A stretch of 44,912 bases of DNA from an uncultured Candidatus Saccharibacteria bacterium (GCA_964494655.1 CAZBRM010000002.1:1-44912), one strand, 5' to 3'; counted from the stretch's first letter, positions 6,075-32,894 are shown. Numbers and translations are program-made. Notes: generated by a model from the letters alone, not told the origin.

Positions 6075-6126
6075 CATTTGTAAAAACTAAAATAAAACTA
6101 TTTATAAGAAAAGATACAATAAAAAA

Positions 6127-19224: not shown

Positions 19225-20862
19225 ATGAATAACATAATTAAAATTATTTCTTATTTATTAATAACTGGAGGTTTTTTTATTTTCTGCCTTCCTTTTTCCG
19301 TCAATGCCACAAATGTAGTTATTAATGAAATTATGTATGATTTGCCAGGGATTGATACCGATCATGAGTGGATAGAAATTTTAAATATTTCTGATACTGA
19401 AATTGATTTGACTAATTGGAAATTCAATGATGGAAGTAATCATAATTTAAATGAACCGCCTAAAAATGGTGGGCAAGGTTTACTTAAAATTTCGGCTGGC
19501 GAATATACGATTCTGACTGGAGACGCTACAACTTTTTTAACTGACCATCCGGGATTTTCTGGTACAGTTATTGATACTGTAATGAGTTTAAAAAATACAA
19601 ACGCTACATTAAAAATTCTTGATTTAGAAAACAATGAAATTGATTCTATTGCTTATGAAAGTATCTGGGGCGCCAATGGCGATTGGAAAACTTTAGAAAA
19701 AATTGATTCTCAAGGTACAAATACTCAAAATAATTGGCAAATAAGCGTACTTGACGGAGGAACGCCTGGAATCTTAAATAGTAGTGGCGCAGAAATTGTT
19801 CTTGAAGATAATGGAGAAGAAACATCAATTGAATCAACTACCAGTGGAGTGCCTATTATCCCTGTGAACCAGCCGCCTGTTGCTTATGCTGGAACAGACA
19901 TAACTGCTTTAATTAATCAAGAAATAATATTTGATGGTTCCTTATCTTCTGACTCTAATAATGACGCGCTAACTTATTTTTGGAATTTTGGAGATGGCGC
20001 GACAGATATTGAACAAATATCTAAACATACTTATCTTTATCCAGGACAATATATTATATCTTTATTAGTTGATGATGGAGAATTCTCTGATTTGGATATT
20101 ATTACAATTAATATCTACAATAAATCAATTATTATCAGTGAATTTTTGCCTGATCCAGAAGGGACAGACGCTGAAAATGAATGGATTGAATTATATAATC
20201 AAAGTAATCAAATAGCTAATTTAAGTAACTGGCAATTAGATGACCAAGAAGAAGGAAGTTTGCCTTTTATTTTTCCTGCTAATAGTTTAATAGGCCCTAA
20301 TCAATTTTTAGTTTTAATAAGATCAATTACTAAAATTGCCTTAAACAATGATAATGACCAAGTCCGTCTTATTTACCCAGACGGCTCTTTAGCTGCTGAA
20401 ATTAATTATTTAGCTGAGAAAAAAGAAGGATTCTCCATAGCTTTTGACAATAATGATTATTTTTGGACTAAAATTCCTACTCCTGGATCAGCTAATATTA
20501 TTAGCTCAATTGGTTTAGATTTAGAAACAGAAAATCTATCTAAAAATAATCCTGAGCCAATTATTCAACAAAGCCAAGAAATGCCAGATGTTACGGCTAA
20601 TACGAATTTAAACCAGAGTCAAAGCTTTGACGCTTCTGAGGACAGCCCTTCACTGTCAAATAAAGAATTGCTCTCAAACATTTCGAGCGTTATTCAAAAC
20701 AACCCTAATGATAATATAAATTTTACTGCTTCTTTAGGCCAATCAACACAATTAAATCAGAAATCAAAACTAATTTTATATCTATCAATAATCATCTCTG
20801 GCTCTCTATTATTAAGCTGGATTATTATTCAAGTGAGAAAAACGAAAAAAATCTTGCCTTAG
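19225..20862 (+). CDS. surface-anchored lamin-tail-domain (LTD) - PKD - LTD protein
   Basis: 545 aa with a signal/TM N-terminus. LTD-like VVINEIMYDLPGIDTDHEWIEILN...NWKFND and IIISEFLPDPEGTDAENEWIELYN...NWQLDD. PKD-like PPVAYAGTD...FDGSLSSDSNNDALTYFWNFGDG...HTYLYPGQY. C-terminal TM (LILYLSIIISGSLLLSWIII) plus a basic tail. Confidence 0.82.
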   Translation: MNNIIKIISYLLITGGFFIFCLPFSVNATNVVINEIMYDLPGIDTDHEWIEILNISDTEIDLTNWKFNDGSNHNLNEPPKNGGQGLLKISAGEYTILTGDATTFLTDHPGFSGTVIDTVMSLKNTNATLKILDLENNEIDSIAYESIWGANGDWKTLEKIDSQGTNTQNNWQISVLDGGTPGILNSSGAEIVLEDNGEETSIESTTSGVPIIPVNQPPVAYAGTDITALINQEIIFDGSLSSDSNNDALTYFWNFGDGATDIEQISKHTYLYPGQYIISLLVDDGEFSDLDIITINIYNKSIIISEFLPDPEGTDAENEWIELYNQSNQIANLSNWQLDDQEEGSLPFIFPANSLIGPNQFLVLIRSITKIALNNDNDQVRLIYPDGSLAAEINYLAEKKEGFSIAFDNNDYFWTKIPTPGSANIISSIGLDLETENLSKNNPEPIIQQSQEMPDVTANTNLNQSQSFDASEDSPSLSNKELLSNISSVIQNNPNDNINFTASLGQSTQLNQKSKLILYLSIIISGSLLLSWIIIQVRKTKKILP

Positions 20863-21180: not shown

Positions 21181-21220
21181 AAAGCTGGAACAATACTGTT
21201 TCGGCTTTTTCTTTTTTCTC
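21181..21220 (+). terminator. rho-independent terminator candidate
   Basis: aaagctggaac (21181..21191) pairs with gtttcggcttt (21198..21208) in an 11-bp stem including 2 G:U pairs, with loop aatact, followed by ttcttttttc. Confidence 0.45.
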
Positions 21221-21228
21221 CTTTTCCA

Positions 21229-21257
21229 TTGACACCTTTTATTACTCAAAGTATTAT
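21229..21257 (+). promoter_or_regulatory. sigma70-like promoter candidate for yebC-ruvC
   Basis: TTGACA (21229..21234), a 17-nt spacer, then TATTAT (21252..21257). The SD-like agaggg and ATG 21282 lie downstream. Confidence 0.4.
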
Positions 21258-21825: not shown

Positions 21826-22293
21826 ATGATAATATTAGGAATTGATCCCGGCACTGCCGCCACGGGATATGGCGTTATTAAAAAAGATAACAATCTTGAA
21901 ATGATTGATTATGGTTGTATTGAAACAACTACTGACTATTCAACTGCTGAACGGCTCAACATTTTAGATAAAGAGTTATCTAAAATAATTAAGAAATATC
22001 AGCCAGAAAGAATAGCTATTGAAGATATTTTTTTCTTCAAGAATATTAAAACAGCCATCAAGGTAAGCCAAGCAAGAGGGGTTATTTTAGCAAGAGCGGC
22101 AAAAACAAAAATGCAAATAATTGAATACACCCCGCTTCAAATTAAACAAGCAGTAACTAGTTATGGCAGAGCCGATAAAAATCAGGTTCAACAAATGGTT
22201 AAGTTATTGCTAAATTTAAAACAAATACCTAAGCCAGATGACGCCGCTGATGCTTTAGCCGCAGCCATCTGTTGCGCTAACTCAACAAGATAA
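21826..22293 (+). CDS. ruvC: crossover junction endodeoxyribonuclease RuvC
   Basis: 155 aa, MIILGIDPGTAATGYGVI...IAIEDIFFFKN...TPLQIKQAVTSYGRADKNQVQ...PDDAADALAAAIC. Confidence 0.94.
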   Translation: MIILGIDPGTAATGYGVIKKDNNLEMIDYGCIETTTDYSTAERLNILDKELSKIIKKYQPERIAIEDIFFFKNIKTAIKVSQARGVILARAAKTKMQIIEYTPLQIKQAVTSYGRADKNQVQQMVKLLLNLKQIPKPDDAADALAAAICCANSTR

Positions 22294-22297
22294 ATTT

Positions 22298-22960
22298 ATG
22301 TCTATTATAACTCAATATATGATTAATCAAGGCGTATCAAAAGAAGCAATCATCCTGCTTTTAATGCTTCCTGTTGTCGCAACAATCATTGCTTTTGCCA
22401 GACAGGTTATCGGCATTAAAGGATTTGGAATTTACACACCTTTAATTATTGCTTTTGCATTTTTAGCTACTGGATTAAAATACGGCTTGGCTTTTTTTAT
22501 AATAATCATTCTTGTCGGCACATTAACCAGATTGGTTGTTAAGCGCTTTAGATTATTATATCTTCCTAGGATGGCAATTATTTTAACAGCAGTAGTGTTA
22601 TCTATTCTTATTGTCTTTTTAGAAGGAGCTTATTCAGGACGAAATGGATTAACAGCCGCTTCTATTTTTGCTATTGTCATTATGATTATATTGGTTGAGA
22701 AATTCATAGCATCTCAAATAGAAAGAGGAAATAAAGAAGCAATCATTTTAACTATCGAGACCTTAATTCTTTCTATTATTTGCTACTGGGTTGCTATTTG
22801 GCCATGGCTTAAAAATTTTACTTTAACTTATCCTTTTTTTATTATCATGGGGACTATTGTAATAAATATATTATTAGGCAAATGGACAGGATTAAGAATT
22901 TCAGAATACGCGCGTTTTAGAAAAGTAATTAAATCTATTGAGCCATCTGAAAAAAAATAA
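22298..22960 (+). CDS. 7TM membrane protein of the 7TM_transglut (PF14402-like) family, lacking the transglutaminase-like domain
   Basis: 220 aa with about 7 hydrophobic helices. The segment PVVATIIAFARQVIGIKGFGIYTPLIIAFAF matches my recollection of the conserved first-helix/loop motif of this family. Gene context with a TIGR02291-like ligase agrees. Confidence 0.7.
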   Translation: MSIITQYMINQGVSKEAIILLLMLPVVATIIAFARQVIGIKGFGIYTPLIIAFAFLATGLKYGLAFFIIIILVGTLTRLVVKRFRLLYLPRMAIILTAVVLSILIVFLEGAYSGRNGLTAASIFAIVIMIILVEKFIASQIERGNKEAIILTIETLILSIICYWVAIWPWLKNFTLTYPFFIIMGTIVINILLGKWTGLRISEYARFRKVIKSIEPSEKK

Positions 22961-22967
22961 TCTTGTT

Positions 22968-24287
22968 ATGGTTGATTTTTTAAAAAAATCTAAAAAGCTT
23001 TTGGGCATTAATGCCCGTAATCTCACTTATTTACGGCCCTCTAATTCTTTGAGGGCTATTCGTATTGCTGATAATAAACTTTTAGCTAAAAAGATACTAT
23101 CAAGAAATGGATTGCCTGTTTTGCAAACATATTCAGTTGTCAAAAAAATTGAAGAACTTAGAACGTTTGACTGGACAGGACTGCCATCAACCTTCACTTT
23201 AAAGCCCAATAAAGGGTTTGGTGGCGAAGGCATCCTTGTTATATATGGACGAAAAAAGAAACCGCCTTATCCTTGGGTTAAAGCAGATAAGAAATTAATT
23301 GAAATAAAGGATTTACAAAGCCATATTCTAAATATTTTAGAGGGTAATTTTTCTAGAACGATCCTTCCTGATTTTGCCTTTTTTGAAGAAAGAATTAAAC
23401 TTTTAAAATTATTTAAGCCATATAGCTACCGCGGTATACCAGATATTAGAGTTATTGTATATAATTCGGTTCCAGTAATGGCTGAAATGAGATTCCCAAC
23501 AAGAGAATCAGGCGGCAAGGCAAATCTTCATCTAGGAGGAATTGGAGTTGGCATTGATATGGGCACAGGAACTACCACGACAGCTATACAAAATGATAAA
23601 ATAATTGAATATATTCCAAAAACAAGATTATCGTTAAAAGGGATGCAAGTGCCTGAGTGGAAAGAAGTTTTACAACTTGCCATTAATGCTCAACAAATAA
23701 CTAAAATCGGCTTTCTTGGCATAGATATTGTTATTGACAGGGAAAAAGGACCAATAATTTTGGAGCTTAATGCAAGACCGGGATTATCTATTCAAATTGC
23801 TAATTTAGCCCCGCTCAACGAGCGATTACAAAGAGTTAAAGGTCTTAAAGTAAAAACAATAAAAAGAGGGGTAAAATTAGCGCAAGATCTTTTTGGAGGA
23901 GAAATAGAAGAAGAGTTAGAAGAAATTTCAGGAAGAAAAGTTATTGGTATTAATGAACCAATAGAAATTTTAGATGGAGAAAAAAATAGATATCCAACAA
24001 TGGCTAAAGTTGATACGGGCGCTTATAGAACAACGTTATGTAAAAATTTAGCCGAACAATTGGGAATTAATCAGATTATTGGTTATAAAAAAGTAAGAGG
24101 AGCTTTAGGTTCTGAAGAAAGATCTATTATTAATTTCTCATTTTATTTGGATAAAAGATTAGTAAGCACTGAAGCTTTTATAGCTGATCGAGAGGAATTG
24201 AAGTATGATATTATTATCGGAAGAAAAGATCTAAAAAGATTCTTAGTTGATCCCGCAAAAAATGTTTTTATGGGAAGGAGAGGATAA
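22968..24287 (+). CDS. fusion protein: RimK-related alpha-L-glutamate-ligase-like ATP-grasp (TIGR02291-like) + DUF785/'Zn_protease' retropepsin-like peptidase domain
   Basis: N-terminus: LLGINARNLTYLRPSNSLRAIRIADNKLLAKKILSRNGLPV...KPNKGFGGEGI...ANLHLGGIGVGID...GIDIVIDREKGPIILELNARPGL. C-terminus: IGINEPIEILDG....MAKVDTGAYRTTL...RGALGSEERSIINF...FIADREELKYDIIIGRKDLKRFLVDP. The track start at 22938 is TTG; the ATG at 22968 follows the upstream stop by 7 nt. Confidence 0.8.
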   Translation: MVDFLKKSKKLLGINARNLTYLRPSNSLRAIRIADNKLLAKKILSRNGLPVLQTYSVVKKIEELRTFDWTGLPSTFTLKPNKGFGGEGILVIYGRKKKPPYPWVKADKKLIEIKDLQSHILNILEGNFSRTILPDFAFFEERIKLLKLFKPYSYRGIPDIRVIVYNSVPVMAEMRFPTRESGGKANLHLGGIGVGIDMGTGTTTTAIQNDKIIEYIPKTRLSLKGMQVPEWKEVLQLAINAQQITKIGFLGIDIVIDREKGPIILELNARPGLSIQIANLAPLNERLQRVKGLKVKTIKRGVKLAQDLFGGEIEEELEEISGRKVIGINEPIEILDGEKNRYPTMAKVDTGAYRTTLCKNLAEQLGINQIIGYKKVRGALGSEERSIINFSFYLDKRLVSTEAFIADREELKYDIIIGRKDLKRFLVDPAKNVFMGRRG

Positions 24288-24291
24288 ATAA

Positions 24292-25788
24292 ATGATTGTT
24301 AAAGATTTAAAAACTTTAAAAGAATTATTTAAAAAGATAAAGACGCCCATATTTGGCATAGGGGCTTATGCTTTTGATCGCCTTGGGTTAGAAAATATTA
24401 TTTCTAATTACCGGATTATAGTTTTGCGCTATAGTTTAGATACTAAATTAATTGAAAAAGACATTAAAGTGTTTTCCTTAGAAAAAAGAATGGGGACAAA
24501 ACATATCCGCGAACCGCGCAACGCTACAACCGTTCTAAAACTGCCACAAACCAAAGAATATCTTGATAAATTCAAAAATCCAGCAATGCTTGTATTAAGA
24601 GCATCAAGCAAAATGGAAAGAATTTGCAAAGAAAATAACTGGCAACTACTAGCTAATCCTACTTTCTTTGGCAAAAAAATGTTTGAAAATAAGATTAAAT
24701 TCAGAAAAGTTCTTCAAGAGATTGAGGTTCCTATTCCACCTGGCAAAATATCGCTATTAGATAAATTACATTACGGCCACTTAATAAATAAATATGGCCT
24801 GCCTTTTGTGATCCAACACCCAACCAAGGGCGGAGGAAAAGGAACTTTCTTTATTCATAATAAAGAAGATTTTGAAAAAACCATAGAAAAATTGGAACAA
24901 AAATGGGACGAAGAAGATGAGAAAAAAATGATTCCGCCAACAGAGGTAATTGTCGCTAAATTCATTCAAGGCCCTTCGCCAAGCATAGCTGGATGCGTTA
25001 CTCAATATGGCATTCTTTCAACTAGTCTCCAACATCAAATTTTAGACATTTCACAACTTTATAATCCTGAAAAAGGTTCTGGCCTGTTCTGTGGTCATGA
25101 TTGGACTAGCTCTAATTTTGATGAAGAAATATCTAAACAAGCATATAATTATGTAGAAAAAGTAGGACAACATCTAAAAGAACATGATTATAAAGGAATC
25201 TTTGGGTTGGATTTTGTTCTAGACGAAAAAACCAATCAACTTTATTTAGTTGAATGCAATCCCCGTTTACTTGGCACTGGCCCAACCATAAATATGGCTC
25301 AATTATTAAACAACGAACCCCCTATTTTAGCCTTTCACGTTTTAGCGTTTCTTGATACTGATTATCAACTAGACATAGACAACATAAATAAATTAATGCG
25401 CCAGAAAAAAATAGGCGCTCAAATGATTCTTCATAATTTAACAGGACATTGGGCAAGAAACCATCAACAATTGAAAGCAGGAATCTATAAATTAAATAAT
25501 AAGTCCTCATTAAAATATTTGCGACCAGGATATGATTTAAAACATCTTGAAAACAAAGAGGAATTTTTATTAGCTGATGGAGTTTCTATAAAAAAATCCC
25601 ATTTCAGTCCTAATCGCCGACTCTGTCGCATTCTTACGTTAAATCAGGTTCTAGATAGTTCATACAAGAAATTAACGCCTTGGGCAAATAATGTAGTTGA
25701 GGTTGTTTACAAATCTTTTCAAATAAAACAGATCCATTTAATTAAGTTTAAAAAATTCTTTTTTCCTAATTTTCTAGCTAAAGGATAA
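24292..25788 (+). CDS. second ATP-grasp ligase, subfamily not assignable
   Basis: 498 aa, NKIKFRKVLQEIEVPIPPG...LPFVIQHPTKGGGKGTFFIHNKEDFE...VIVAKFIQG...YKGIFGLDFVLDEKTNQLYLVECNPRLLG. The SD ggaaggagagg lies inside the end of the preceding gene. Confidence 0.7.
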   Translation: MIVKDLKTLKELFKKIKTPIFGIGAYAFDRLGLENIISNYRIIVLRYSLDTKLIEKDIKVFSLEKRMGTKHIREPRNATTVLKLPQTKEYLDKFKNPAMLVLRASSKMERICKENNWQLLANPTFFGKKMFENKIKFRKVLQEIEVPIPPGKISLLDKLHYGHLINKYGLPFVIQHPTKGGGKGTFFIHNKEDFEKTIEKLEQKWDEEDEKKMIPPTEVIVAKFIQGPSPSIAGCVTQYGILSTSLQHQILDISQLYNPEKGSGLFCGHDWTSSNFDEEISKQAYNYVEKVGQHLKEHDYKGIFGLDFVLDEKTNQLYLVECNPRLLGTGPTINMAQLLNNEPPILAFHVLAFLDTDYQLDIDNINKLMRQKKIGAQMILHNLTGHWARNHQQLKAGIYKLNNKSSLKYLRPGYDLKHLENKEEFLLADGVSIKKSHFSPNRRLCRILTLNQVLDSSYKKLTPWANNVVEVVYKSFQIKQIHLIKFKKFFFPNFLAKG

Positions 25789-25812: not shown

Positions 25813-25838
25813 AAAAAACCGCCTTAAACGGGTTTTTG
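25813..25838. terminator. weak bidirectional hairpin between convergent genes
   Basis: aaaaacc(25814..25820)-gccttaaacg-ggttttt(25831..25837), with A/T runs on both sides. Sits between the ATP-grasp gene (+) and tyrS (-). Confidence 0.3.
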
Positions 25839-25860: not shown

Positions 25861-27078
25861 TTAAACTCTTATTTGAATGAATTTTCTTTTGCCAACTTGG
25901 ATAATCATTTTATCTTTAGTAATTATTTCCTGATTATTATCTTTTATCTTATGATTATCTATTTTAACTCCGCCCTGTTCAACTAAACGTCTGGCTTGAT
26001 TTTTACTTAAACTTAATTTCGTCTTAATTAGTAATTCTAAAATATTATATTTTTTATCGCTTAATTTACAAACAGGCATCTCTGCTGGTCTCTGTTTCTC
26101 CTTAAAAATGCGTTCGAATTCTTTTTCTGCTTCTTGAGCAGATTTTTTATTATGATGTATAGAGATAATTTCTCTAGCCAATCTTGCTTTAGCATCTCGC
26201 GGATTTAGTTTATCGCTCTTAATATCTTCATCTATTTGCTTAATTTCTTCCATAGGCAGATCAGTACAAAGTTCTAATCCTGGAATAATTAAACCATCAG
26301 GCCAAGACATAATTTGGCCAAACATTTGTTCTGGCTTTTCATTTAAAACAATCATATTGCCAGTTGTCTTGCCCATTTTCTCTCCTTTAGGATCAACTAA
26401 CAACTTAGTTGTTAAAACAAATTTCTCTTTCTTATTAATCGCTTTTATTAAATCCCTACCACAAAGCATATTAAATGTTTGATCATTACCGCCTATTTCT
26501 AAATCAACGCCCATAGCCACGCTGTCATAGGCCTGACTTAGGGGATATAAAAATTCATGTAAATAAATTGGTTGATTTTTTTTTATTCTTTCTTGAAACA
26601 TACTTCTTACAAGCATTTGCTGAACTGTAAACTTAGACGCTATTTTAATTAAATCAACAAAATTTAACTTATCATTCCACTCACTGTTATACATTATTTT
26701 AGCTGAATTTTTTCCGGAAAAATCTAAAATTTTATCTGCTTGTTCTTTATAATTTTCTGAATTTTTAAGGACTTCTTCTCTGGTTAATTTTTTTCTAGTT
26801 TCGCTTTTATCTGTGGGATCTCCAATCATACCAGTAAAATCTCCAATTAAAAAAATAACTTCGTGGCCTAGTTTCTGAAATTGAGCTAATTTTCTAATTT
26901 GAATAGCATGACCAATATGAAGAGTTGATGCTGTTGGATCAAAACCGCAATAAAGACGAATTTTTTTACCTGACTTTAGTATTTTTTCTAAAGATGCCTT
27001 ATTAGGATAAATATTCTCAACTCCTCTAGTTAGAGCTTTTTGTATTTTTTGTTCTTGACTCATAATTAATTTAATCAT
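25861..27078 (-). CDS. tyrS: tyrosine--tRNA ligase (with C-terminal S4 domain)
   Basis: YCGFDPTASTLHIGH (HIGH), KMGKT (KMSKS) and a C-terminal S4-like LSKNQARRLVEQGGVKIDN. The track start at 27132 is TTG and would overlap the divergent PBP gene. The ATG at 27078 is preceded by AAGGA; the ATG at 27063 is an alternative. Confidence 0.93.
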   Translation of the reverse strand: MIKLIMSQEQKIQKALTRGVENIYPNKASLEKILKSGKKIRLYCGFDPTASTLHIGHAIQIRKLAQFQKLGHEVIFLIGDFTGMIGDPTDKSETRKKLTREEVLKNSENYKEQADKILDFSGKNSAKIMYNSEWNDKLNFVDLIKIASKFTVQQMLVRSMFQERIKKNQPIYLHEFLYPLSQAYDSVAMGVDLEIGGNDQTFNMLCGRDLIKAINKKEKFVLTTKLLVDPKGEKMGKTTGNMIVLNEKPEQMFGQIMSWPDGLIIPGLELCTDLPMEEIKQIDEDIKSDKLNPRDAKARLAREIISIHHNKKSAQEAEKEFERIFKEKQRPAEMPVCKLSDKKYNILELLIKTKLSLSKNQARRLVEQGGVKIDNHKIKDNNQEIITKDKMIIQVGKRKFIQIRV

Positions 27079-27123
27079 ATCATCCTTGCCAAAACAGGTC
27101 AATTCTGCGAAAATAAGAAAACA

Positions 27124-29631
27124 ATGAAACAAAAAAGAAACATCATCAAAATAATAATATTTTTTATTATTTTTTGTTTTATTTTAACTTTTCTTACAGG
27201 AATTGGCGTTTTTGCTTATTTCGCTAAAGACTTGCCTGATCCTACTAAAATAGGCCAGCGCCAAATAGCTCAATCAACTAAAATTTACGATCGCACCGGA
27301 AAAATAATTCTATATGATATTCATGGAGAAGAAAAAAGAACAATAATTCCATTTGAACAAATACCTCAATATGTAAAAGATGCAACTGTTGTTATTGAAG
27401 ATGATAATTTTTATCATCATATTGGAATAGATTGGAAAGGAATTATTAGGGCTATTCTTGCTAATTTTAGAGGAAAAAAAATAGAGCAAGGCGGCTCAAC
27501 CATAACGCAACAATTTATCAAAAACGCTTATTTGGGAGGTCCACAATCTGAAAGAACCTATACTCGCAAAATTAAAGAAGCTATTTTAGCGCTAATAATG
27601 GAAAGAAAATATTCCAAAGATGAAATTTTAAATTCATATCTTAATCAAATTCCTTATGGATCTAATGCTTATGGCATTGAAGCGGCTAGCCAGACATTTT
27701 TCAATAAATCAGCTCAAGACATTACGTTGGCCGAAGCAGCGCTTCTGGCCGCGCTCCCGCAAGCATCAAGTTATTATTCTCCTTATGGCTCTCATTTAGA
27801 TGAACTTAAAGACAGGCAAAATAATATTTTGAACAAAATGATTTCTTTTGGCTATATTACAGAAGAACAAGCCAACCAAGCTAAAGAAGAAAAATTAGAA
27901 TATGCATCGCAGATAAATCTTAAGGCTCATCATTTTGTCACTATGGTCAAGGAATATTTAGAAGAAAAATATGGCAATCTTTATGCGGATATAAATATGG
28001 CAGGATTGAAAGTGCAAACAACATTAGACTGGGACTTACAGCAAATTGCCGAAGAAATAATTACCGAAAAAGCAATTAGAAATAAAGAGAAATATAACGC
28101 AAGTAATGCTGCTTTAGTTACTATTGATCCAAAAACGGGCCAGGTTATAGCATTAGTCGGTTCAAAAAATTATGATGAAGATCAATTTAATATTGCTACA
28201 AGCCCTCATAGACAACCTGGATCTTCTTTTAAACCATTTGCTTATGCTGCTGCTTTTAAAAAAGGATATACTCCTGAAACAATAGTATTTGACTTACAAA
28301 CAAATTTTGGAAAATTTGGAACAATAGATTATATCCCAAAAAACTATGATAATAAATTCCGTGGACCAATAAGTTTAAGAAGCGCCTTAGCACAATCAAT
28401 TAATATTCCAGCTGTTAAAATTCTTTATCTCGCAGGAGTTGATGAAACAATTAAATTAGCCCAAAATATGGGGATAACAACTTTAAAAGACAGACAAAGA
28501 TATGGACTATCTTTAGCCTTAGGCGGTGGAGAAGTTAAATTAATAGATGAAACAGCTGCCTATGGAGTATTTGCAACTGAAGGAGTTAAATATCCAATAA
28601 GTATAATTTTAAAAATTGAAGACGCTAATGGGAATATTCTAGAAAAATATAGAGAAAATCCAACAAGAGTTCTTGATGAACAAACCTCAAGACAAATTAA
28701 TGATATTCTTTCAGATGATTCGGCAAGAGCGCCTATGTTTGGAACTCATTCAAGGCTTTATCTCCCAGGAATTCCAGCAGCTGTAAAAACAGGAACTACG
28801 CAAGATTATGCTGATGGATGGACCATTGGATATACGCCAAGTTTAGTCACTGGAGTTTGGGCTGGTAATAATGATTATGACGAGAAAATGAGACAAGGAG
28901 CTGCTGGCGCGAGTGTAGCAGCCCCAATATGGAATGAATTTATGATTAAAGCTTATGAATTTAAAACTAATGAAAATAATGGAGAAAATAAAGAAAACGA
29001 TGAATTTATTTTACCTAAAAGCGCGGAAAATTTCACATCCCCAGAACCAACCACGACAACCACTAAACCAATACTTAATGGCCAATTTACTTATAATAAT
29101 AATGTAAAAATTGATAAAATCTCAAGAAAATTAGCAACTGATTTAACACCACCTGATTTAATTGAAGAAAAATCATATCAAGAAATTCATTCTATACTTT
29201 ATTATATTAATAAAGATGACCCATTAGGTGATTATCCTAATAATCCAAACCAGGATCCGCAATTTGAAGAATGGGAAAAATCTGTTTTAGAATGGGCTCC
29301 AGATAATCAAAGCCCTCCAACAGAGTACGATGATATTCATATATTAGAAAATCAGCCTAATATAAAAATTATTCTTCCAGTAAAAAATAGTTTTATTAAT
29401 CAGTATATCTTAACGATACAAGCCCAAGCAGAAGCCCCCTTAGAAATTAAACAGCTTGATTTTTTTATTAACAACCAATTTATTGGTACCGACAAAATTA
29501 AACCTTATTCAATAACTTTTAATATTTTCCCTTACTTATTAGATCAAGAAGAGCAAACTATAAAAGTTAGGGCTTATGATAATGTTTTAAATAGACAAGA
29601 AGATAAAATAATTATTAAAACAGATTTTTAA
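27124..29631 (+). CDS. class A penicillin-binding protein (GT51 transglycosylase + transpeptidase) with a long C-terminal extension
   Basis: 835 aa with an N-terminal TM. GT51 motifs EDDNFYHHIGID, GGSTITQQ and RKIKE. Transpeptidase motifs SSFKP, SIN and KTGTT. About 200 further residues, Thr/Asn-rich then beta-rich. Confidence 0.93.
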   Translation: MKQKRNIIKIIIFFIIFCFILTFLTGIGVFAYFAKDLPDPTKIGQRQIAQSTKIYDRTGKIILYDIHGEEKRTIIPFEQIPQYVKDATVVIEDDNFYHHIGIDWKGIIRAILANFRGKKIEQGGSTITQQFIKNAYLGGPQSERTYTRKIKEAILALIMERKYSKDEILNSYLNQIPYGSNAYGIEAASQTFFNKSAQDITLAEAALLAALPQASSYYSPYGSHLDELKDRQNNILNKMISFGYITEEQANQAKEEKLEYASQINLKAHHFVTMVKEYLEEKYGNLYADINMAGLKVQTTLDWDLQQIAEEIITEKAIRNKEKYNASNAALVTIDPKTGQVIALVGSKNYDEDQFNIATSPHRQPGSSFKPFAYAAAFKKGYTPETIVFDLQTNFGKFGTIDYIPKNYDNKFRGPISLRSALAQSINIPAVKILYLAGVDETIKLAQNMGITTLKDRQRYGLSLALGGGEVKLIDETAAYGVFATEGVKYPISIILKIEDANGNILEKYRENPTRVLDEQTSRQINDILSDDSARAPMFGTHSRLYLPGIPAAVKTGTTQDYADGWTIGYTPSLVTGVWAGNNDYDEKMRQGAAGASVAAPIWNEFMIKAYEFKTNENNGENKENDEFILPKSAENFTSPEPTTTTTKPILNGQFTYNNNVKIDKISRKLATDLTPPDLIEEKSYQEIHSILYYINKDDPLGDYPNNPNQDPQFEEWEKSVLEWAPDNQSPPTEYDDIHILENQPNIKIILPVKNSFINQYILTIQAQAEAPLEIKQLDFFINNQFIGTDKIKPYSITFNIFPYLLDQEEQTIKVRAYDNVLNRQEDKIIIKTDF

Positions 29632-29632
29632 A

Positions 29633-30739
29633 TTAAACCTTAATTGGCATAACTATATAAGAATAATTAATATCTCCAACTGGTCTTATTAAGACTGGTT
29701 TAGTATTATCGTTCAAACCTATAATTACTTTGTCACTATAGATATTATTCAAACCGTCCAAAATATAACGGTAATTAAAAATTACTTCAACTTCTTTTCC
29801 TTTAATTTCTGCTTCTATTTTAGATTTATTTTCTCCTATATCTGCATCTTTTGAGGAAATTTCAATTATAGATTTTTTAGGATCAACAAATATTTTAATA
29901 TCATTAACTTTTCCAGTAAATAAGCTTGCGACTTTAATATTATTAATTAATTCGGCTCTATTAATAATTACTTCTGTTTCTGAATTAGATGGGATAATCT
30001 GTTGATAATCTGGGTATTGTCCATCTATTAATCTTGAAATTATTTGTGTATTATTAAAATCAAATAAAATTTGATTATTTGATAAAGTAATTTTTACTTC
30101 TTCTTGTTCTTTTTTTTCGCTTAAAATTCTAATCACTTCTAATACAGTTCTTTGTGGTATTATAATTGACTGTTCTTTTAATTCTTTAGAATTAATTTCT
30201 ATATTTTTTTCAGCTAAACGAAAACTATCAGTAGCTGCTAATTTAATTGTATTTTTATAAAAATTTATATATATACCTGAAATTTCAGGTCTAGATTCTG
30301 AAGTTGAAGCCATTTCAACTACCTGTATAAAACTATTTTTTAATAAATTATTTTTAATATTTATTAATGGTTGTAATTTAATTTTTGGAATAATTGGAAA
30401 ATCATCAGCACTTAAACCCTTTAAAATAGATTTAAATTTCTTACATTTTAATTCTAATTGTTTATCTTTAACCCTTAATTCTATTTTTTCATTAGGTAAA
30501 TTATTAACAAAATCATTAATTAATTTAGCTGGAACAGTAATACTTCCTCTTTCTTTAATTTTTCCTGGAATCCAACAATTAATTCCTATTTCTAAATTAG
30601 TTGAAGATATTTTTAATTTATTATTTTCTATAGATAATAAAACATTATTTAATATTGGTAATGTTAAATTTCTACCAATTATTCTTTCAACTATATTTAA
30701 TGCTTTTTTAAAATTTTCTTGAAGACAAATTATATTCAT
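29633..30739 (-). CDS. dnaN: DNA polymerase III beta sliding clamp
   Basis: 368 aa, typical three-domain length, ...TLPILNNVLL...ISSTNLEIGI...ATDSFRLAEK...LIDGQYPDYQQIIP.... Sits directly downstream of dnaA. Confidence 0.93.
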   Translation of the reverse strand: MNIICLQENFKKALNIVERIIGRNLTLPILNNVLLSIENNKLKISSTNLEIGINCWIPGKIKERGSITVPAKLINDFVNNLPNEKIELRVKDKQLELKCKKFKSILKGLSADDFPIIPKIKLQPLINIKNNLLKNSFIQVVEMASTSESRPEISGIYINFYKNTIKLAATDSFRLAEKNIEINSKELKEQSIIIPQRTVLEVIRILSEKKEQEEVKITLSNNQILFDFNNTQIISRLIDGQYPDYQQIIPSNSETEVIINRAELINNIKVASLFTGKVNDIKIFVDPKKSIIEISSKDADIGENKSKIEAEIKGKEVEVIFNYRYILDGLNNIYSDKVIIGLNDNTKPVLIRPVGDINYSYIVMPIKV

Positions 30740-30892
30740 TTTAATAATTATAATTTAATTAAATTTATTTATTATTAATATTATTAGTATTTATAAATCT
30801 GTGTAAAACTCTTTTTTTATAATCTATATATTATGTTTTATAATTTATAATATGTTATTAAAAAAGTAAATAACTTGTGGAAAAATTATTTA
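30740..30892. other. dnaA-dnaN intergenic region: extremely AT-rich candidate DNA-unwinding part of oriC
   Basis: By hand count about 14 G+C in 153 nt. DnaA-box-like TGTGGAAAA at 30876..30884 (1 mismatch to TGTGGATAA) and TGTGTAAAA at 30800..30808 (2 mismatches). Confidence 0.4.
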
Positions 30893-32254
30893 TTAATTGT
30901 ATATTTTTTCTTTAATTAAATTAATCTCTTGTTGGAATAACTCGTTGTCCACAATCTCTTTATTTATTTTTCGGCAAGCATACATTACTGTTGTATGATC
31001 TCTTCCTCCTAATTTTTCTCCTATATAAGGATAAGAATTATTTAATTCTTCTCTAATTAAATACATGGTTATTTGTCTAGGATGGACTAATTCTTTTTTT
31101 CTTGATTTATTAATTAAATCATTTGTGTTTACATCATAAAAATCAGCCACTGTTTTAAGAATATTTTTATAATTAGTTTTTCTTTTTGGCGAGTTAATAA
31201 TTTGAGATAATATTTGAGGAACTGTTTTTATATCAGGCGCTGTTTTATTTATTTGCGCAAAAGCTATAATTCTATTAAGCGCTCCTTCTAATTCTCTTAT
31301 ATTATTTTGAATATGTGAAGAAATATAATCTATAACATCTTCAGAAATTTTGATTTTCTTTTCTTTTATTTTATTTTTTAAAATAGCTGTTCTGGTTTCT
31401 AAATCAGGATAACTAATATCAGCTATCATCCCCCCTTCAAAACGAGAGCGAAGACGTTCTTCTAGAGTTGAAATTGATTTAGGTGGTTTATCTGAGCTTA
31501 TAATAATTTGCTTATTTTTCTGATAGAGACTATTGAACATATGAAAAAACTCTTCTTGTGTTTTTTCTTTACCAGCAATAAATTGAATATCATCAATAAT
31601 TAAAGTATCTATTTTATGATATTTATTTTTAAAAGAATCCATTCCTTTTTTTTGGATAGCATCAACTAATTCACTTGTGTATTTTTCCGAGCTAAGATAT
31701 TTGATTTTTTTATTGGGATATCTTTTAAATAATTCATTCCCCATTGCTTGAAGTAAATGTGTTTTTCCTAATCCAACACCTCCATAAATAAATAAAGGAT
31801 TATACATTGTTCCCATATGATCAACAACGGCTCTACTGGCCGCCTGGGCCAATTCATTAAAAGAACCAACAACGAAATTATCAAAAGTATATTTAGGATT
31901 TAAATTTGTTTCTTTATTAAAACTAAATTCCTGAAAATTTAATTGGTCACCAATATTGGTTGGTATTATTTTTGGTATTGTTTTATTAATAGTATTAGTA
32001 AGTGTTTTTTCGTTGCCTATCATAAACTGAATTTCTTTGATGTCTGGAGAATTATTACGAAGAATTTTAAAGATAAGTTTATTATATTTATTTTCAAGCC
32101 ATTCCTTTGTAAAACCATTAGGCGCGCTTACAGTAATAACGCCATTTTTTTTAGAATGGATCTTAGTGTTCTTAAACCAAGTAATGAAACTAGCTTTAGA
32201 AATAGTTAATTCAACTTCGCCTAGCACAGTTTGCCAGAGTTCTTTTAGATTCAT
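30893..32254 (-). CDS. dnaA: chromosomal replication initiator DnaA
   Basis: 453 aa, NPLFIYGGVGLGKTHLLQA, LIIDDIQFIAGKEKTQEEFFH, RSRFEGGMIADI, and C-terminal HPRQITMYLIRE...IGEKLGGRDHTTVMYA. Confidence 0.98.
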   Translation of the reverse strand: MNLKELWQTVLGEVELTISKASFITWFKNTKIHSKKNGVITVSAPNGFTKEWLENKYNKLIFKILRNNSPDIKEIQFMIGNEKTLTNTINKTIPKIIPTNIGDQLNFQEFSFNKETNLNPKYTFDNFVVGSFNELAQAASRAVVDHMGTMYNPLFIYGGVGLGKTHLLQAMGNELFKRYPNKKIKYLSSEKYTSELVDAIQKKGMDSFKNKYHKIDTLIIDDIQFIAGKEKTQEEFFHMFNSLYQKNKQIIISSDKPPKSISTLEERLRSRFEGGMIADISYPDLETRTAILKNKIKEKKIKISEDVIDYISSHIQNNIRELEGALNRIIAFAQINKTAPDIKTVPQILSQIINSPKRKTNYKNILKTVADFYDVNTNDLINKSRKKELVHPRQITMYLIREELNNSYPYIGEKLGGRDHTTVMYACRKINKEIVDNELFQQEINLIKEKIYN

Positions 32255-32371
32255 ATATTATAACTTTTAATTATTGTATCATAATAAAACAAATAAACAA
32301 AATACGTGTTTTTGTTAACAAGATGTGTATGAACTGTGAAGAATTATTATTTAATTAAAGCGTGTTTTAAG
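32255..32371. other. dnaA-rpmH intergenic region with DnaA-box-like repeats (candidate oriC/dnaA control region)
   Basis: TGTGTATGA (32324..32332) and TGTGAAGAA (32335..32343) share orientation, lie 11 nt apart, and each carries 2 mismatches to TGTGGATAA. cgtgtttt is repeated at 32305 and 32361. Confidence 0.35.
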
Positions 32372-32400
32372 TTGACTTTAATAAAAAAAAATACTAGAAT
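32372..32400 (+). promoter_or_regulatory. sigma70-like promoter candidate for rpmH-rnpA-yidC
   Basis: TTGACT (32372..32377), a 17-nt spacer, then TAGAAT (32395..32400), which ends 9 nt before the rpmH ATG. Confidence 0.4.
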
Positions 32401-32409
32401 TAACACATT

Positions 32410-32544
32410 ATGTCTTTCACTTATAATCCCAAAAAGAAGAAAAGAAAAAAAACACATGGTTTTATGGTAAGAATGTCTACTAGATATGGTCGCCGTGTTT
32501 TATCTAAACGAAGAGCAAAAAAGCGTAAAAAATTAACCGTTTAA
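32410..32544 (+). CDS. rpmH: 50S ribosomal protein L34
   Basis: Not in the ORF track (44 aa). Hand translation gives [44 protein letters not shown]. Canonical position between dnaA and rnpA. Confidence 0.93.
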
Positions 32545-32552
32545 TTTTTGGC

Positions 32553-32894
32553 ATGCTTTCAAAAAAATATAAATTAAAAAAGGACAATGATTTTAAGAAA
32601 GTATTTAAAAATGGAAGATACAAACAGAAAGATTTTATTAAAATAAAGTTTTTAAAAAATAATTTAGAAATAAGTAGATTTTCTTTTATAGTAGGATTAA
32701 AGATATCAAAAAAAGCTGTTCAGAGAAATAAAATTAAACGCAGATTAGAAGAAATTATACGATTAAATTCTAAACGAATTATTATAGGTTTTGATATTAT
32801 TGTCTTTGTTGATAAAGAAATAATAGAAAAGAAATATATAGAAATAAAAGAAAATTTAGTTTATTTATTAAAAAAATCAAAGCTAATTATTTAA
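32553..32894 (+). CDS. rnpA: ribonuclease P protein component
   Basis: 113 aa, LKKDNDFKKVFKNGR...VGLKISKKAVQRNKIKRRLEEIIR (the RNR-like motif). Position after rpmH. Confidence 0.9.
   Translation: MLSKKYKLKKDNDFKKVFKNGRYKQKDFIKIKFLKNNLEISRFSFIVGLKISKKAVQRNKIKRRLEEIIRLNSKRIIIGFDIIVFVDKEIIEKKYIEIKENLVYLLKKSKLII

What the first reader, a model, noticed from the sequence alone, without database searches (positions are those of the whole stretch)
22298..25788. Compact 7TM + (RimK-related ligase fused to retropepsin-like peptidase) + second ATP-grasp operon: candidate uncharacterised peptide-tailing or peptide-polymer system
Three tightly packed genes follow ruvC, with spacers of 4, 7 and 4 nt. (i) A 220-aa 7TM protein resembles the 7TM_transglut family but lacks its usual inactive-transglutaminase domain. 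(ii) A 439-aa protein has an N-terminal half resembling the alpha-L-glutamate-ligase-related ATP-grasp family (TIGR02291; LGINARNLTYLRP...) and a C-terminal 120 residues forming a DUF785/'Zn_protease' retropepsin-like domain (AKVDTGAYRTTL...IIGRKDLKRFLVDP). (iii) A 498-aa second ATP-grasp enzyme is of unclear subfamily. In proteobacteria the 7TM-transglutaminase protein, the TIGR02291 ligase and the DUF785 peptidase are separate neighbouring genes. That association was predicted computationally, and to my knowledge its product remains experimentally undefined. The related RimK and RimB proteins add and trim poly-Glu tails on ribosomal protein S6. Here the system is condensed, fused, joined by an extra ligase, and found in a minimal CPR-type genome. 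This suggests it does something these cells cannot dispense with, such as building and trimming an amino-acid tail or polymer at the membrane.
Basis: partly seen in the sequence, partly recalled or inferred. Interest (0 to 1): 0.78.

Follow-up and report, generated by a model that had tools for sequence, protein, structure and literature searches.

The report
Rlo-like membrane peptide ligase–peptidase cluster
Three tightly packed genes in a tiny-genome (Patescibacteria/CPR) bacterium encode a seven-helix membrane protein, an amino-acid-joining enzyme fused to a peptide-cutting enzyme, and a second joining enzyme; this is a compact, widespread relative of the Pseudomonas RloABC stress-tolerance system, whose chemical product is still unknown.

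Summary
ORFs, lengths and 4/7/4-nt spacers are as described, and all three domain assignments pass profile searches. Gene 1 is the 7TM module of RloB without its transglutaminase domain. Gene 2 is a RloC/TIGR02291-like ATP-grasp ligase fused to a RloA/RimB-like retropepsin. It keeps the catalytic DTG and the Lys/Arg residues that RloA needs to cut poly-glutamate. Gene 3 is an orphan ATP-grasp ligase, not Ddl, PurK or biotin carboxylase.

The 7TM plus ligase–peptidase pair occurs in at least 592 species-level genomes. The 80 examined are Patescibacteria-like and share the order yebC–ruvC–7TM–fusion. The pair is about as conserved as RuvC and YebC.

Gene 3 is an accessory. It is present in 27 of 85 loci and is replaced by other ATP-grasp ligases in 48. 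Fusion proteins link all the parts, including 7TM+ligase and ligase+retropepsin+gene-3.

Best reading: a membrane-docked, non-ribosomal acidic-peptide (poly-Glu-type) add-and-trim machine. It is a new variant of a known kind. The product and acceptor are inferred, not shown.

The parts
22298..22960 (+). 7TM membrane protein (220 aa), homologous to the C-terminal 7TM module of RloB. It has no transglutaminase domain. Predicted topology is N-terminus outside, C-terminus inside, with a basic cytoplasmic tail.
   Evidence: PF14402, E=2e-30. NF052267 RloB positions 312-507 of 508. The AF2 model has mean pLDDT 82 and seven long helices, with no solved fold relative. By my count from the sequence, cytoplasmic loops carry 18 K/R and external loops 4. 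Most invariant columns of alignment A2 lie in the cytoplasmic loops and tail.
22968..24287 (+). Fusion protein (439 aa): a RloC/TIGR02291-like ATP-grasp amino-acid ligase joined to a retropepsin-like aspartic peptidase.
   Evidence: The search found 4049 homologues at E<=1e-5, and all of the top 120 listed are fusion-type proteins, mostly about 440 aa.
22968..23897 (+). ATP-grasp ligase domain (residues 1-310). It contains the Mg/ATP-site residues D253, E266 and N268 (nt 23724-23771) and K79.
   Evidence: PF14397, 221 bits; TIGR02291, 269 bits. D253/E266/N268 align with RimK D248/E260/N262 and are invariant in alignment A1. The domain pI is 10.1.
23898..23957 (+). Acidic linker (residues 311-330, containing GEIEEELEEIS) between the ligase and the peptidase.
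   Evidence: pI 4.3. The acidic character is kept in close relatives only. Its role is unknown.
23958..24287 (+). Retropepsin-like peptidase domain (residues 331-439). The catalytic D349-T350-G351 is at nt 24012-24020. K347, R385 and R408 align with RloA K46, R114 and R137. The domain also has a GRxD motif at residues 418-421.
   Evidence: The domain profile hits RloA structures 9g58_A (E=9e-9) and 9g59_A (E=2.7e-8), with motif spacing matching RloA numbering. It also hits the DDI1 retropepsin at E=1e-3. DTG or DSG is kept in 119 of the 120 closest homologues. Residue roles are from PMC12239564.
24292..25788 (+). Second ATP-grasp ligase (498 aa, here called AG2). It is a Patescibacteria-restricted orphan family with a three-domain fold like biotin carboxylase and PurK, and a family-specific invariant loop GSGLFCGHDW (residues 262-271).
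   Evidence: P0261 (926 aa) fuses ligase, retropepsin and an AG2 domain that is 35% identical to gene 3 over 482 aa, E=1e-86. AG2 homologues sit in the same cluster in 27 of 85 loci and in 3 of 3 contexts found starting from AG2 itself.
25819..25831 (.). Short GC hairpin flanked by A/T runs between the convergent AG2 and tyrS genes. It is a likely end of the transcription unit.
   Evidence: The terminator scan flags it on the minus strand. The sequence is shown. This is a consensus match only.
21229..21257 (+). Best promoter-like site (TTGACA-17-TATTAT), just after a terminator-like hairpin at 21181-21208 and upstream of yebC. It suggests a yebC-ruvC-7TM-fusion-AG2 transcript.
   Evidence: 11 of 12 matches. 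The total number of promoter-like sites in the region is no higher than in shuffled sequence, so this is weak evidence.

Best explanation
This is a Patescibacteria-wide variant of the Rim/Rlo type of peptide add-and-trim system.

Proposed mechanism:
- The RloC-like ATP-grasp domain of gene 2 uses ATP to ligate amino acids non-ribosomally. The most likely substrate is L-glutamate or another acidic residue, added to the C-terminus of a growing peptide or tail.
- The ligase works while docked on the conserved cytoplasmic face of the 7TM protein (gene 1).
- The retropepsin domain fused in cis presumably dimerises like other retropepsins. It cuts runs of acidic residues and so sets chain length, releases product or regenerates primers.
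- The second ligase (gene 3) is a lineage-specific accessory that adds a different residue or makes the primer.
- The 7TM protein anchors the machinery and probably hands the product to, or through, the membrane.

Shown here: domain identities, intact catalytic residues, genetic linkage and fusions, distribution and conservation.

Inferred: the Glu/acidic chemistry, the acceptor, the docking, and any export.
For: **Homology to RloB, RloC and RloA.**

**Intact active sites.** The ligase Mg/ATP residues and K79 are invariant. DTG is kept in 119 of 120 close homologues.

**Poly-Glu-binding residues.** The residues whose mutation abolishes RloA poly-Glu cleavage and complementation are R114 and R137; K46 and D48 also matter. 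All align with invariant K347, D349, R385 and R408 (PMC12239564).

**Basic domains.** Ligase pI is 10.1 and peptidase pI is 9.45.

**Physical and functional linkage.**
- 7TM is fused to the ligase in P0382 and in L024.
- Ligase, retropepsin and AG2 are fused in P0261.
- The 7TM gene lies directly upstream of the fusion gene in all 82 loci that have upstream sequence.
- 75 of 84 informative loci carry at least one further ATP-grasp ligase downstream.

**Peptidase swap.** In proteins of about 790 aa that fuse ligase, retropepsin and MATCAP, the retropepsin motifs decay while the MATCAP HExxxH motif is kept. Eukaryotic MATCAP/TMCP enzymes are carboxypeptidases that trim acidic tubulin tails and remove polyglutamylation (PMC10499314).

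**Genetics in Pseudomonas.** Loss of rloB or rloC suppresses loss of the peptidases. The ligase and 7TM protein therefore make something that the peptidase must process.

**Topology.** The 7TM C-tail and most invariant residues are cytoplasmic, which fits docking of a cytoplasmic enzyme.

**Conservation.** It equals that of RuvC, YebC, TyrS and the PBP across species.
Against: - No product, acceptor or activity is known for any RloC-type ligase. The Glu specificity is extrapolated from RimK and from the peptidase pocket.
- TIGR02291 scores below its trusted cut-off (269 against 314 bits), so orthology to RloC is not strict.
- In Pseudomonas the peptidase is periplasmic, which is the main argument for export. 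Here it is cytoplasmic, so export through the 7TM protein is not required by the data.
- The 7TM fold has no solved relative. It carries conserved acidic residues E134 and E154, which would be an odd lining for a poly-anion conduit.
- Conservation figures are biased because loci were chosen by similarity to the fusion protein.
- Neighbouring glycosyltransferase, GNAT, YdjC and PBP genes in relatives hint at a glycan or cell-wall acceptor instead.
Confidence: 0.5

Rival explanations
1. The acceptor is a cell-wall or glycopolymer precursor. The ligases would build or decorate a peptide on a lipid-linked sugar or peptidoglycan unit, and the 7TM protein would act as the membrane scaffold or flippase for that glycopeptide.
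For: - A class-A PBP gene lies just downstream in the window (27124-29631) and in most related loci.
- In relatives the variable slot between the fusion gene and the PBP gene also holds GT4 glycosyltransferases, a GNAT and a YdjC-type deacetylase.
- Pfam names PF14397 'sugar-transfer associated'.
- Pseudomonas rlo mutants have cell-shape and beta-lactam phenotypes, and Vibrio rlo is under the cell-wall-stress regulator VxrAB.
- Both ligases give weak hits to the archaeal pseudomurein ATP-grasp model.
Against: - PBP adjacency may be inherited gene order. The whole ruvB-yebC-ruvC...tyrS-PBP-dnaN-dnaA block near the origin is syntenic.
- In the window tyrS intervenes on the opposite strand.
- Glycosyltransferase, GNAT and YdjC genes are present in only a minority of loci and in none at the window.
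- The peptidase pocket residues point to poly-Glu rather than to a stem peptide.
Confidence: 0.15
2. The 7TM protein is a sensor or regulator, in the manner of a 7TM receptor, and not a conduit. It would switch a cytoplasmic ligase/peptidase pair on or off in response to envelope or osmotic cues, and the product would stay in the cytoplasm as an osmolyte, a storage poly-amino acid or a protein tail.
For: - Related 7TM proteins carry variable extracellular domains: an inactive transglutaminase in RloB, and PKD in L040 and L085. That is a receptor-like architecture.
- Here the peptidase is cytoplasmic, so nothing requires export.
- The osmotic phenotype in Pseudomonas fits a regulatory role.
- Conserved residues cluster on the cytoplasmic face, as expected for signalling to a partner.
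Against: - Most Patescibacteria versions have no extracellular domain at all.
- In Pseudomonas a cytoplasmic ligase and a periplasmic peptidase act in one pathway. That is hard to explain unless something crosses the membrane.
Confidence: 0.15
3. It is a RimK/RimB-type ribosome-modification system. The ligase would add, and the fused peptidase would trim, a poly-Glu tail on ribosomal protein S6, with the 7TM protein only localising it.
For: - The peptidase is cytoplasmic, like RimB, and fusion mimics the reported RimK-RimB complex.
- Weak RimK-family similarity: TIGR00768, E=5.6e-15.
- The peptidase pocket is RimB/RloA-like.
Against: - The ligase scores far better on the RloC-type model (269 bits) than on RimK (55 bits against a cut-off of 143) or on S6-Glu ligase PRK10446 (15 bits against 331).
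- Obligate pairing and fusion with a 7TM protein and the multiple accessory ligases have no counterpart in rim operons.
- No rpsF is present in the window to examine.
Confidence: 0.07
4. The ATP-grasp genes are ordinary housekeeping enzymes (Ddl, PurK/PurT, biotin carboxylase or carbamoyl-phosphate synthase) that merely sit next to a membrane protein.
For: Foldseek places gene 3 nearest biotin carboxylase and PurK structures, at E of about 1e-16. There are weak sequence hits to those families.
Against: - All housekeeping models score far below their cut-offs: biotin carboxylase 35 bits against 723, PurK 26 against 318, Ddl 18-22 against about 245.
- Identity to the solved structures is about 12% and TM-score about 0.5-0.6.
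- The biotin carboxylase motif QVEH is LGTG in gene 3, so its conserved Glu-His pair is absent (alignment).
- Gene 3 is fused to the ligase-peptidase in P0261.
- Gene 3 was found only in this cluster in every context sampled.
Confidence: 0.02

Closest known systems
RloABC operon of Pseudomonas aeruginosa (Lormand et al., mBio 2025, PMC12239564)
   Same: - The same three protein modules: the 7TM_transglut membrane module (RloB), a TIGR02291-type ATP-grasp ligase (RloC) and a retropepsin-like peptidase (RloA) with conserved K/D/R/R poly-Glu-binding residues.
- The genes are adjacent and co-oriented.
- The product is unknown in both systems.
   Different: - Here the 7TM protein lacks the periplasmic inactive transglutaminase domain.
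- The peptidase has no signal peptide and is fused to the C-terminus of the cytoplasmic ligase, whereas RloA is secreted.
- One or more extra ATP-grasp ligases accompany the core.
- The host is a monoderm-type, reduced-genome Patescibacterium, and the cluster sits in core synteny near oriC.
- The ligase falls below the TIGR02291 trusted cut-off.
RimK/RimB (RimABK) ribosomal protein S6 poly-glutamylation system
   Same: A cytoplasmic ATP-grasp alpha-L-Glu ligase is partnered with a cytoplasmic retropepsin that trims poly-Glu. The two are reported to interact physically, which fusion would hard-wire.
   Different: - The ligase is not a RimK-family member by score.
- It is always paired with, and sometimes fused to, a 7TM membrane protein.
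- Accessory ligases are present.
- There is no evidence that S6 is the substrate.
Eukaryotic tubulin tail cycle: TTL/TTLL ATP-grasp ligases versus MATCAP/TMCP carboxypeptidases (PMC10499314)
   Same: - An ATP-grasp ligase adds residues to acidic C-terminal tails and a peptidase removes them.
- Patescibacteria relatives of gene 2 are fused or adjacent to MATCAP-family domains that keep the HExxxH motif.
   Different: - The window itself has no MATCAP gene.
- The substrate here is unknown and is not tubulin.
- The analogy concerns logic and shared families, not orthology of a pathway.
Poly-gamma-glutamate synthetase PgsBCA with the CapD/PgdS depolymerases, and cyanophycin synthetase with its primer-generating hydrolytic site (from my own knowledge; not tested here)
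   Same: A cytoplasmic ATP-dependent amide ligase works at or with polytopic membrane proteins to make a non-ribosomal poly-amino acid. A dedicated peptidase cuts the polymer for release, length control or primer supply.
   Different: - The enzyme families are unrelated (Mur-ligase-like PgsB; CphA1 architecture).
- The linkage chemistry differs (gamma-Glu; Asp-Arg).
- No homology to the 7TM protein.

Membership tests
RloABC system | Membrane protein with the 7TM_transglut (PF14402) module | tested here: met
   PF14402, E=2e-30, 106 bits against a cut-off of 25. It aligns to RloB model positions 312-507 of 508.
RloABC system | Periplasmic inactive transglutaminase domain on the 7TM protein (full-length RloB, NF052267) | tested here: not met
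   The protein is only 220 aa, with 82.8 bits against a cut-off of 900, and matches only the C-terminal 7TM part. Relatives are also about 213-245 aa. Two relatives carry a PKD domain instead.
RloABC system | RloC-type ATP-grasp ligase (TIGR02291) | tested here: inconclusive
   E=3.7e-80, covering positions 9-314 of 317, but 269.3 bits is below the trusted cut-off of 314.2. Catalytic residues are intact.
RloABC system | Retropepsin-like peptidase with catalytic DTG and the poly-Glu-binding residues K46, R114 and R137 | tested here: met
   The domain profile hits RloA structures 9g58 and 9g59 at E=9e-9 and 2.7e-8. K347, D349, R385 and R408 align with identical spacing and are invariant. The NCBIfam RloA1-3 equivalog scores (15-25 bits) are far below their cut-offs, so this is homology, not equivalog membership.
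RloABC system | Peptidase is secreted (N-terminal signal peptide) | tested here: not met
   The peptidase domain spans residues 331-439 of a soluble ligase fusion with no N-terminal signal or TM segment. It must therefore be cytoplasmic.
RloABC system | Poly-Glu cleavage activity, and hypo-osmotic, biofilm and antibiotic phenotypes suppressed by loss of the ligase or 7TM protein | not testable with these tools
   Requires biochemistry and genetics. Known only for Pseudomonas.
RimK/RimB system | RimK-family alpha-L-glutamate ligase (TIGR00768 / PRK10446) | tested here: not met
   TIGR00768 scores 55.4 bits against a cut-off of 143.4. PRK10446 scores 15.3 against 331.
RimK/RimB system | Ribosomal protein S6 with an acidic C-terminus as acceptor | not testable with these tools
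   No rpsF homologue is present in the 44.9-kb window.
PF14397 ATPgrasp_ST (Pfam family) | Score above the Pfam gathering threshold over the full domain | tested here: met
   221.1 bits against a cut-off of 31.4, covering positions 2-277 of 278.
Biotin carboxylase / PurK / Ddl (for gene 3) | Score above the curated cut-off, and the family's conserved QVEH motif | tested here: not met
   Best scores are 35 bits against 723 (biotin carboxylase), 26 against 318 (PurK) and 22 against 243 (Ddl). The biotin carboxylase motif QVEH is LGTG in gene 3. Fold similarity is only generic: TM-score 0.5-0.6 and 12% identity.
NF005096 / PRK06524 'biotin carboxylase'-labelled ATP-grasp family (for gene 3) | Score above the curated cut-off | tested here: not met
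   172.6 bits against a cut-off of 684, E=8e-51, positions 16-425 of 493. This is a distant relative, not a member.
Known anti-phage defence systems (PADLOC) | Any component model hit | tested here: not met
   No hits for any of the three proteins at E<=0.01.

The most novel reading that the evidence does not exclude
The 7TM plus ligase-peptidase core is a near-core machine of Paceibacteria/Moranbacteria-type Patescibacteria. It would synthesise, size and export a previously unrecognised non-ribosomal anionic peptide polymer as an envelope or osmoprotective component. The interchangeable accessory ATP-grasp ligases, together with MATCAP, GNAT, glycosyltransferase and YdjC genes, would diversify its composition between lineages. 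On this reading the Patescibacteria form is a widespread simple version of the system, rather than the system being a gammaproteobacterial invention derived from rim as proposed for rlo. The ligase-MATCAP pairing would be a prokaryotic counterpart of the eukaryotic tubulin-tail TTL(L)/MATCAP cycle.
Probability: 0.2. Interest if true: 0.8.

Novelty: new variant of a known kind. Interest (0 to 1): 0.55.

Why it matters
**An open question in Pseudomonas.** The Rlo system controls osmotic-stress survival, biofilm formation and antibiotic tolerance in Pseudomonas. Nobody yet knows what its ligase makes or what its 7TM protein does.

**A simpler version to work with.** The Patescibacteria version is stripped down, with no transglutaminase domain and with the peptidase fused to the ligase. 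It is widespread and about as conserved as the DNA-repair and translation genes around it. Two or three soluble domains and one small membrane protein could be reconstituted to identify the product.

**Evolutionary picture.**
- RloB-type 7TM proteins were reported as 96% proteobacterial (PMC12239564), yet a large Patescibacteria branch exists.
- Natural fusions now link all the parts: 7TM with ligase, ligase with peptidase, and ligase with peptidase and a second ligase or MATCAP.

**Relevance to CPR biology.** In organisms with very small genomes and largely unknown envelopes, a conserved multi-ligase peptide machine near the replication origin is a good candidate for an uncharacterised envelope or stress function.

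Tried and rejected
- **Defence system:** PADLOC gave no hits for any of the three proteins.
- **Fold of the 7TM protein:** Foldseek against the PDB found nothing significant. The best matches were NqrD/RnfE-type subunits at E of about 1 and TM-score about 0.4. No transporter or receptor family can be assigned, and I do not rely on the Nqr/Rnf resemblance.
- **Gene 3 as biotin carboxylase, PurK or Ddl:** rejected on scores, on the absent biotin carboxylase motif and on context.
- **S6 as substrate:** no rpsF in the window, and the only acidic run is EEEEEE inside the T2SSE-type ATPase. Not testable.
- **Ribosomal precursor peptide (RiPP/graspetide idea):** the gaps between genes are only 4-7 nt, so I saw no room for a small precursor gene inside the window's cluster. 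Small ORFs occur in two relatives only (L004, L024). Not pursued.
- **Acidic linker as a self-cleavage site:** it has at most three consecutive Glu, whereas RloA needs at least 8, and its acidity is not conserved in distant relatives. Kept only as a note.
- **Literature:**
  - Iyer et al. 2009 (the original computational prediction) is not held in the library, so I cite it from memory only.
  - I found no paper linking RimK-like ligases with Patescibacteria.
  - I found none linking MATCAP with bacterial ATP-grasp enzymes.
  - I found no follow-up identifying the RloBC product.
- **Promoter scan:** the number of promoter-like sites equals that in shuffled sequence, so the operon boundary is only suggestive.

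Full report
**1. Observation**

- ruvC (21826-22293) is followed on the same strand by ORFs of 220 aa (22298-22960), 439 aa (22968-24287 from the ATG) and 498 aa (24292-25788).
- The gaps are 4, 7 and 4 nt.
- A convergent tyrS follows at 25861-27132 on the minus strand.
- Some gene callers start the first protein at Met8, giving 213 aa.
- An alternative TTG start for gene 2 at 22938 would overlap gene 1. Homologue alignments support the ATG.

**2. What the three proteins are**

*Gene 1.*
- It matches PF14402 (7TM_transglut) at E=2e-30.
- It matches only positions 312-507 of the 508-position NCBIfam model for RloB, the 'osmotic stress tolerance membrane protein'. It is therefore the 7TM module without the transglutaminase domain.
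- An AlphaFold2 model (mean pLDDT 82) shows seven long helices plus a C-terminal amphipathic helix.
- The K/R distribution that I counted from the sequence is 18 in the predicted cytoplasmic loops and tail against 4 outside. This gives an N-out, C-in topology.
- Most invariant positions in 46 homologues lie on the cytoplasmic side: R35/Q36/G39/G42, R78...Y88/R91, E134/F136/Q140 and W196-F207.
- Foldseek finds no significant solved relative; the best E is about 1.

*Gene 2, ligase domain.*
- Residues 1-310 match PF14397 (221 bits) and TIGR02291 (E=3.7e-80, 269 bits, below the 314-bit trusted cut-off).
- RimK-family models score far lower.
- The Mg/ATP-site residues D253, E266 and N268 align with RimK D248, E260 and N262. 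They are invariant, as is K79.

*Gene 2, peptidase domain.*
- Residues 331-439 form a retropepsin domain. Single-sequence scores are marginal: PF05618 at 27.3 bits against a cut-off of 27, and DDI1 at E=1e-3.
- A profile of nine such domains hits the RloA crystal structures 9g58 and 9g59 at E=9e-9 and 2.7e-8.
- In that alignment AK(347)-V-D(349)TG, R385 and R408 correspond to RloA K46, D48, R114 and R137, with identical spacing.
- The R114A and R137A substitutions had the strongest effect on poly-Glu cleavage in vitro and failed to complement in vivo (PMC12239564).
- DTG or DSG is kept in 119 of the 120 closest homologues.
- The ligase domain (pI 10.1) and the peptidase domain (pI 9.45) are both basic. 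They are joined by an acidic linker containing GEIEEELEEIS.

*Gene 3 (AG2).*
- It matches only generic ATP-grasp models. The best specific hit is NF005096/PRK06524 at 172.6 bits against a cut-off of 684.
- Its AlphaFold2 model (pLDDT 91) resembles biotin carboxylase and PurK only generically: TM-score 0.5-0.6 and about 12% identity.
- The biotin carboxylase QVEH motif is LGTG in gene 3.
- Ddl, PurK and biotin carboxylase models all score far below their cut-offs.
- AG2 is an orphan family. The search found 364 homologues at E<=1e-5. The 120 listed are almost all about 500 aa, and those that carry a name come from Patescibacteria.
- The family has an invariant loop, GSGLFCGHDW.

**3. Are the genes a unit?**

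*Distribution and gene order.*
- The best 80 all look like Patescibacteria (Paceibacteria, Moranbacteria, Parcubacteria). A few records carry other titles, noted in section 7.
- In those 80 loci and in 5 fetched earlier, a 7TM gene lies immediately upstream of the fusion gene in all 82 loci that have upstream sequence. In L024 the two are fused into one 689-aa ORF.
- The order yebC-ruvC-7TM-fusion is almost universal in this set.

*The downstream slot varies.*

| Content downstream of the fusion gene | Loci (of 85) |
|---|---|
| AG2-type gene | 27 |
| One to three other RimK/GshB-like ATP-grasp genes instead, sometimes with GT4 glycosyltransferase, GNAT, YdjC or MATCAP genes | 48 |
| None | 9 |
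| Too short to judge | 1 |

A class-A PBP gene usually follows.

*Reverse check.* Starting from three AG2 homologues of 55-58% identity, every context again showed 7TM, fusion, MATCAP and AG2 in that order.

*Rosetta-stone fusions in the representative-protein search.*
- P0382 is 7TM plus ligase.
- P0261 is ligase, retropepsin and an AG2 domain that is 35% identical to gene 3 over 482 aa (E=1e-86).
- P0242 is ligase, retropepsin and YdjC.
- Many proteins of about 790 aa are ligase, retropepsin and MATCAP.

*Conclusion.* The 7TM plus ligase-peptidase pair is the invariant core. Gene 3 is one of several interchangeable accessory ligases, but it is a genuine part of the system.

*Conservation.* Across the species-level loci the 7TM and fusion proteins are as conserved as the housekeeping neighbours. 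The loci were selected by similarity to the fusion protein, which inflates its value.

| Protein | Median identity, closer set (%) | Median identity, all loci (%) |
|---|---|---|
| Fusion | 75 | 51 |
| RuvC | 73 | 54 |
| YebC | 70 | 54 |
| 7TM | 68 | 54 |
| TyrS | 66 | 66 (found only in the closer set) |
| PBP | 66 | 48 |
| AG2 | 64 | 61 |

**4. Comparison with what is known**

*RloABC.* The proteobacterial counterpart is no longer just a prediction. Lormand et al. (mBio 2025, PMC12239564) named it RloABC in P. aeruginosa and reported the following.
- RloA paralogues are secreted retropepsins that cut runs of at least 8 Glu.
- The triple protease mutant dies in hypo-osmotic medium and has biofilm, antibiotic and shape defects.
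- Deleting rloB (7TM plus inactive transglutaminase) or rloC (ATP-grasp) suppresses these defects.
- The product of RloB and RloC is still unknown. I found no later paper that identifies it.
- The authors report RloB as 96% proteobacterial and propose that rlo arose from rim in Gammaproteobacteria.

*How the window's system differs.*
- It has no transglutaminase domain.
- The peptidase is fused to the ligase and is therefore cytoplasmic, like RimB rather than RloA.
- Accessory ligases are present.
- It is widely distributed in Patescibacteria, in core synteny a few kb from dnaN and dnaA.

**5. Mechanism**

*The evidence converges on an add-and-trim cycle on an acidic peptide.*
- The ligase is RimK/RloC-like.
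- The fused peptidase keeps the poly-Glu-binding pocket.
- In the ligase-retropepsin-MATCAP triple fusions the retropepsin signature and Arg residues decay (DTS, DPG, NTT and others), while the MATCAP domain keeps HEI(D/E)TH and the ligase keeps its catalytic residues. A peptidase is evidently required, and either type will serve.
- Eukaryotic MATCAP/TMCP enzymes are HExxxH carboxypeptidases that trim acidic tubulin tails and remove polyglutamylation (PMC10499314).

*Role of the 7TM protein.* Its cytoplasmic C-tail, its fusion to the ligase N-terminus in some genomes and its conserved cytoplasmic face argue that the ligase is docked on it.

*Open points.*
- Whether the product then crosses the membrane. 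The Pseudomonas genetics and RloA's periplasmic location imply that it does there. In this system it could equally stay inside.
- Whether the acceptor is a free peptide, a protein tail or a glycan or cell-wall precursor. The neighbouring PBP, GT4, GNAT and YdjC genes in relatives keep that last rival alive.

*Confidence.* I put about 0.5 on the membrane-docked acidic-peptide add-and-trim model. The cell-wall or glycopolymer acceptor rival and the sensor rival each get about 0.15. S6 modification gets about 0.07. Housekeeping enzymes are effectively excluded.

**6. Novelty and verdict**

All component families were known. I found no description of the following:
- the Patescibacteria-wide variant with its fused, cytoplasmic peptidase and transglutaminase-less 7TM protein;
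- the multi-ligase accessory slot;
- the natural fusions;
- the retropepsin-to-MATCAP peptidase swap.

This is a new variant of a known kind, of moderate interest. It is not categorically new. It is a good minimal model for finding the still-unknown product of Rlo-type systems, and it shows that the family is much broader than reported.

**7. Surroundings and incidental observations**
- The window spans the likely replication origin. dnaN (29633-30739) and dnaA (30893-32254) are on the minus strand, and the cumulative GC-skew minimum is at about 31-32 kb.
- Upstream of the cluster are a T2SSE-type ATPase, ruvB and a conserved LTD/PKD surface protein.
- A tmRNA gene lies at 5691-6077, and no tRNA genes are present.
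- The best promoter-like site (21229-21257), following a terminator-like hairpin, lies upstream of yebC. A hairpin at 25819-25831 follows gene 3. Together they suggest a five-gene transcript, but the scan is no better than chance overall.

Noticed in passing
window 29633-32600: dnaN (29633-30739) and dnaA (30893-32254) lie on the minus strand. The cumulative GC-skew minimum is at about 31-32 kb, and GC falls to 19-26% there. The window probably spans the chromosomal replication origin, and the cluster lies about 5-10 kb from it.
   Followed up: partly
window 5691-6077 (+): A full-length tmRNA gene (Rfam RF00023, 107.6 bits). ARAGORN found no tRNA or tmRNA in the whole 44.9-kb window, so ARAGORN missed this tmRNA.
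   Followed up: no
P0250, P0252, P0253 and about 30 further proteins of about 790 aa; loci L023, L055, L059, L061, L078, L089-L091: Patescibacteria relatives fuse or juxtapose the ligase with a MATCAP-family (PF08014, formerly DUF1704) domain that keeps the HExxxH motif. In the triple fusions the retropepsin domain has mostly lost DTG and its Arg residues. This looks like a peptidase swap. It also looks like a prokaryotic ligase-plus-MATCAP pairing that parallels the eukaryotic TTL(L)/MATCAP tubulin-tail cycle.
   Followed up: partly
window 23898-23957 (fusion residues 311-330): A Glu-rich linker (containing GEIEEELEEIS, pI 4.3) sits between two basic domains, directly upstream of a peptidase predicted to prefer acidic runs. 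It could be a pseudo-substrate or a self-processing site. However, it has at most three consecutive Glu and is acidic only in close relatives.
   Followed up: partly
window 25075-25104 and 25765-25785 (gene 3 residues 262-271 and 492-498): The AG2 family has an invariant, low-pLDDT loop GSGLFCGHDW and a nearly invariant extreme C-terminus, with L495, A496, K497 and G498 (LAKG) conserved in at least 90% of the 49 aligned sequences. The fused version P0261 lacks the last 16 or so residues. The function of both features is unknown.
   Followed up: no
L040:4427-5989 and L085:4450-5976: In two relatives the 7TM protein is about 510-520 aa. In L040, which was scanned against Pfam, the N-terminal part is a PKD domain, where RloB has its transglutaminase domain; L085 was not scanned. 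The conserved upstream gene in the window (19225-20862) is itself an LTD/PKD surface protein.
   Followed up: partly
window 34352-37065: A Wzx-like polysaccharide flippase (PF01943) and a Wzy_C/O-antigen-ligase-like protein lie about 9 kb downstream. This indicates a surface-glycan locus on the other side of the origin.
   Followed up: no
L026, L028, L029 and others; L057, L080: Several public MAG records that carry this Patescibacteria-type locus are titled 'uncultured Bdellovibrionales', 'uncultured Candidatus Saccharibacteria' or 'Candidatus Pacearchaeota archaeon'. Gene content and synteny suggest that these titles are placeholder labels or mislabels.
   Followed up: no
window 22298-22321: The start codon of the 7TM gene is ambiguous. 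Public gene calls split between Met1 (220 aa, 4 nt after ruvC) and Met8 (213 aa, 25 nt after ruvC).
   Followed up: partly
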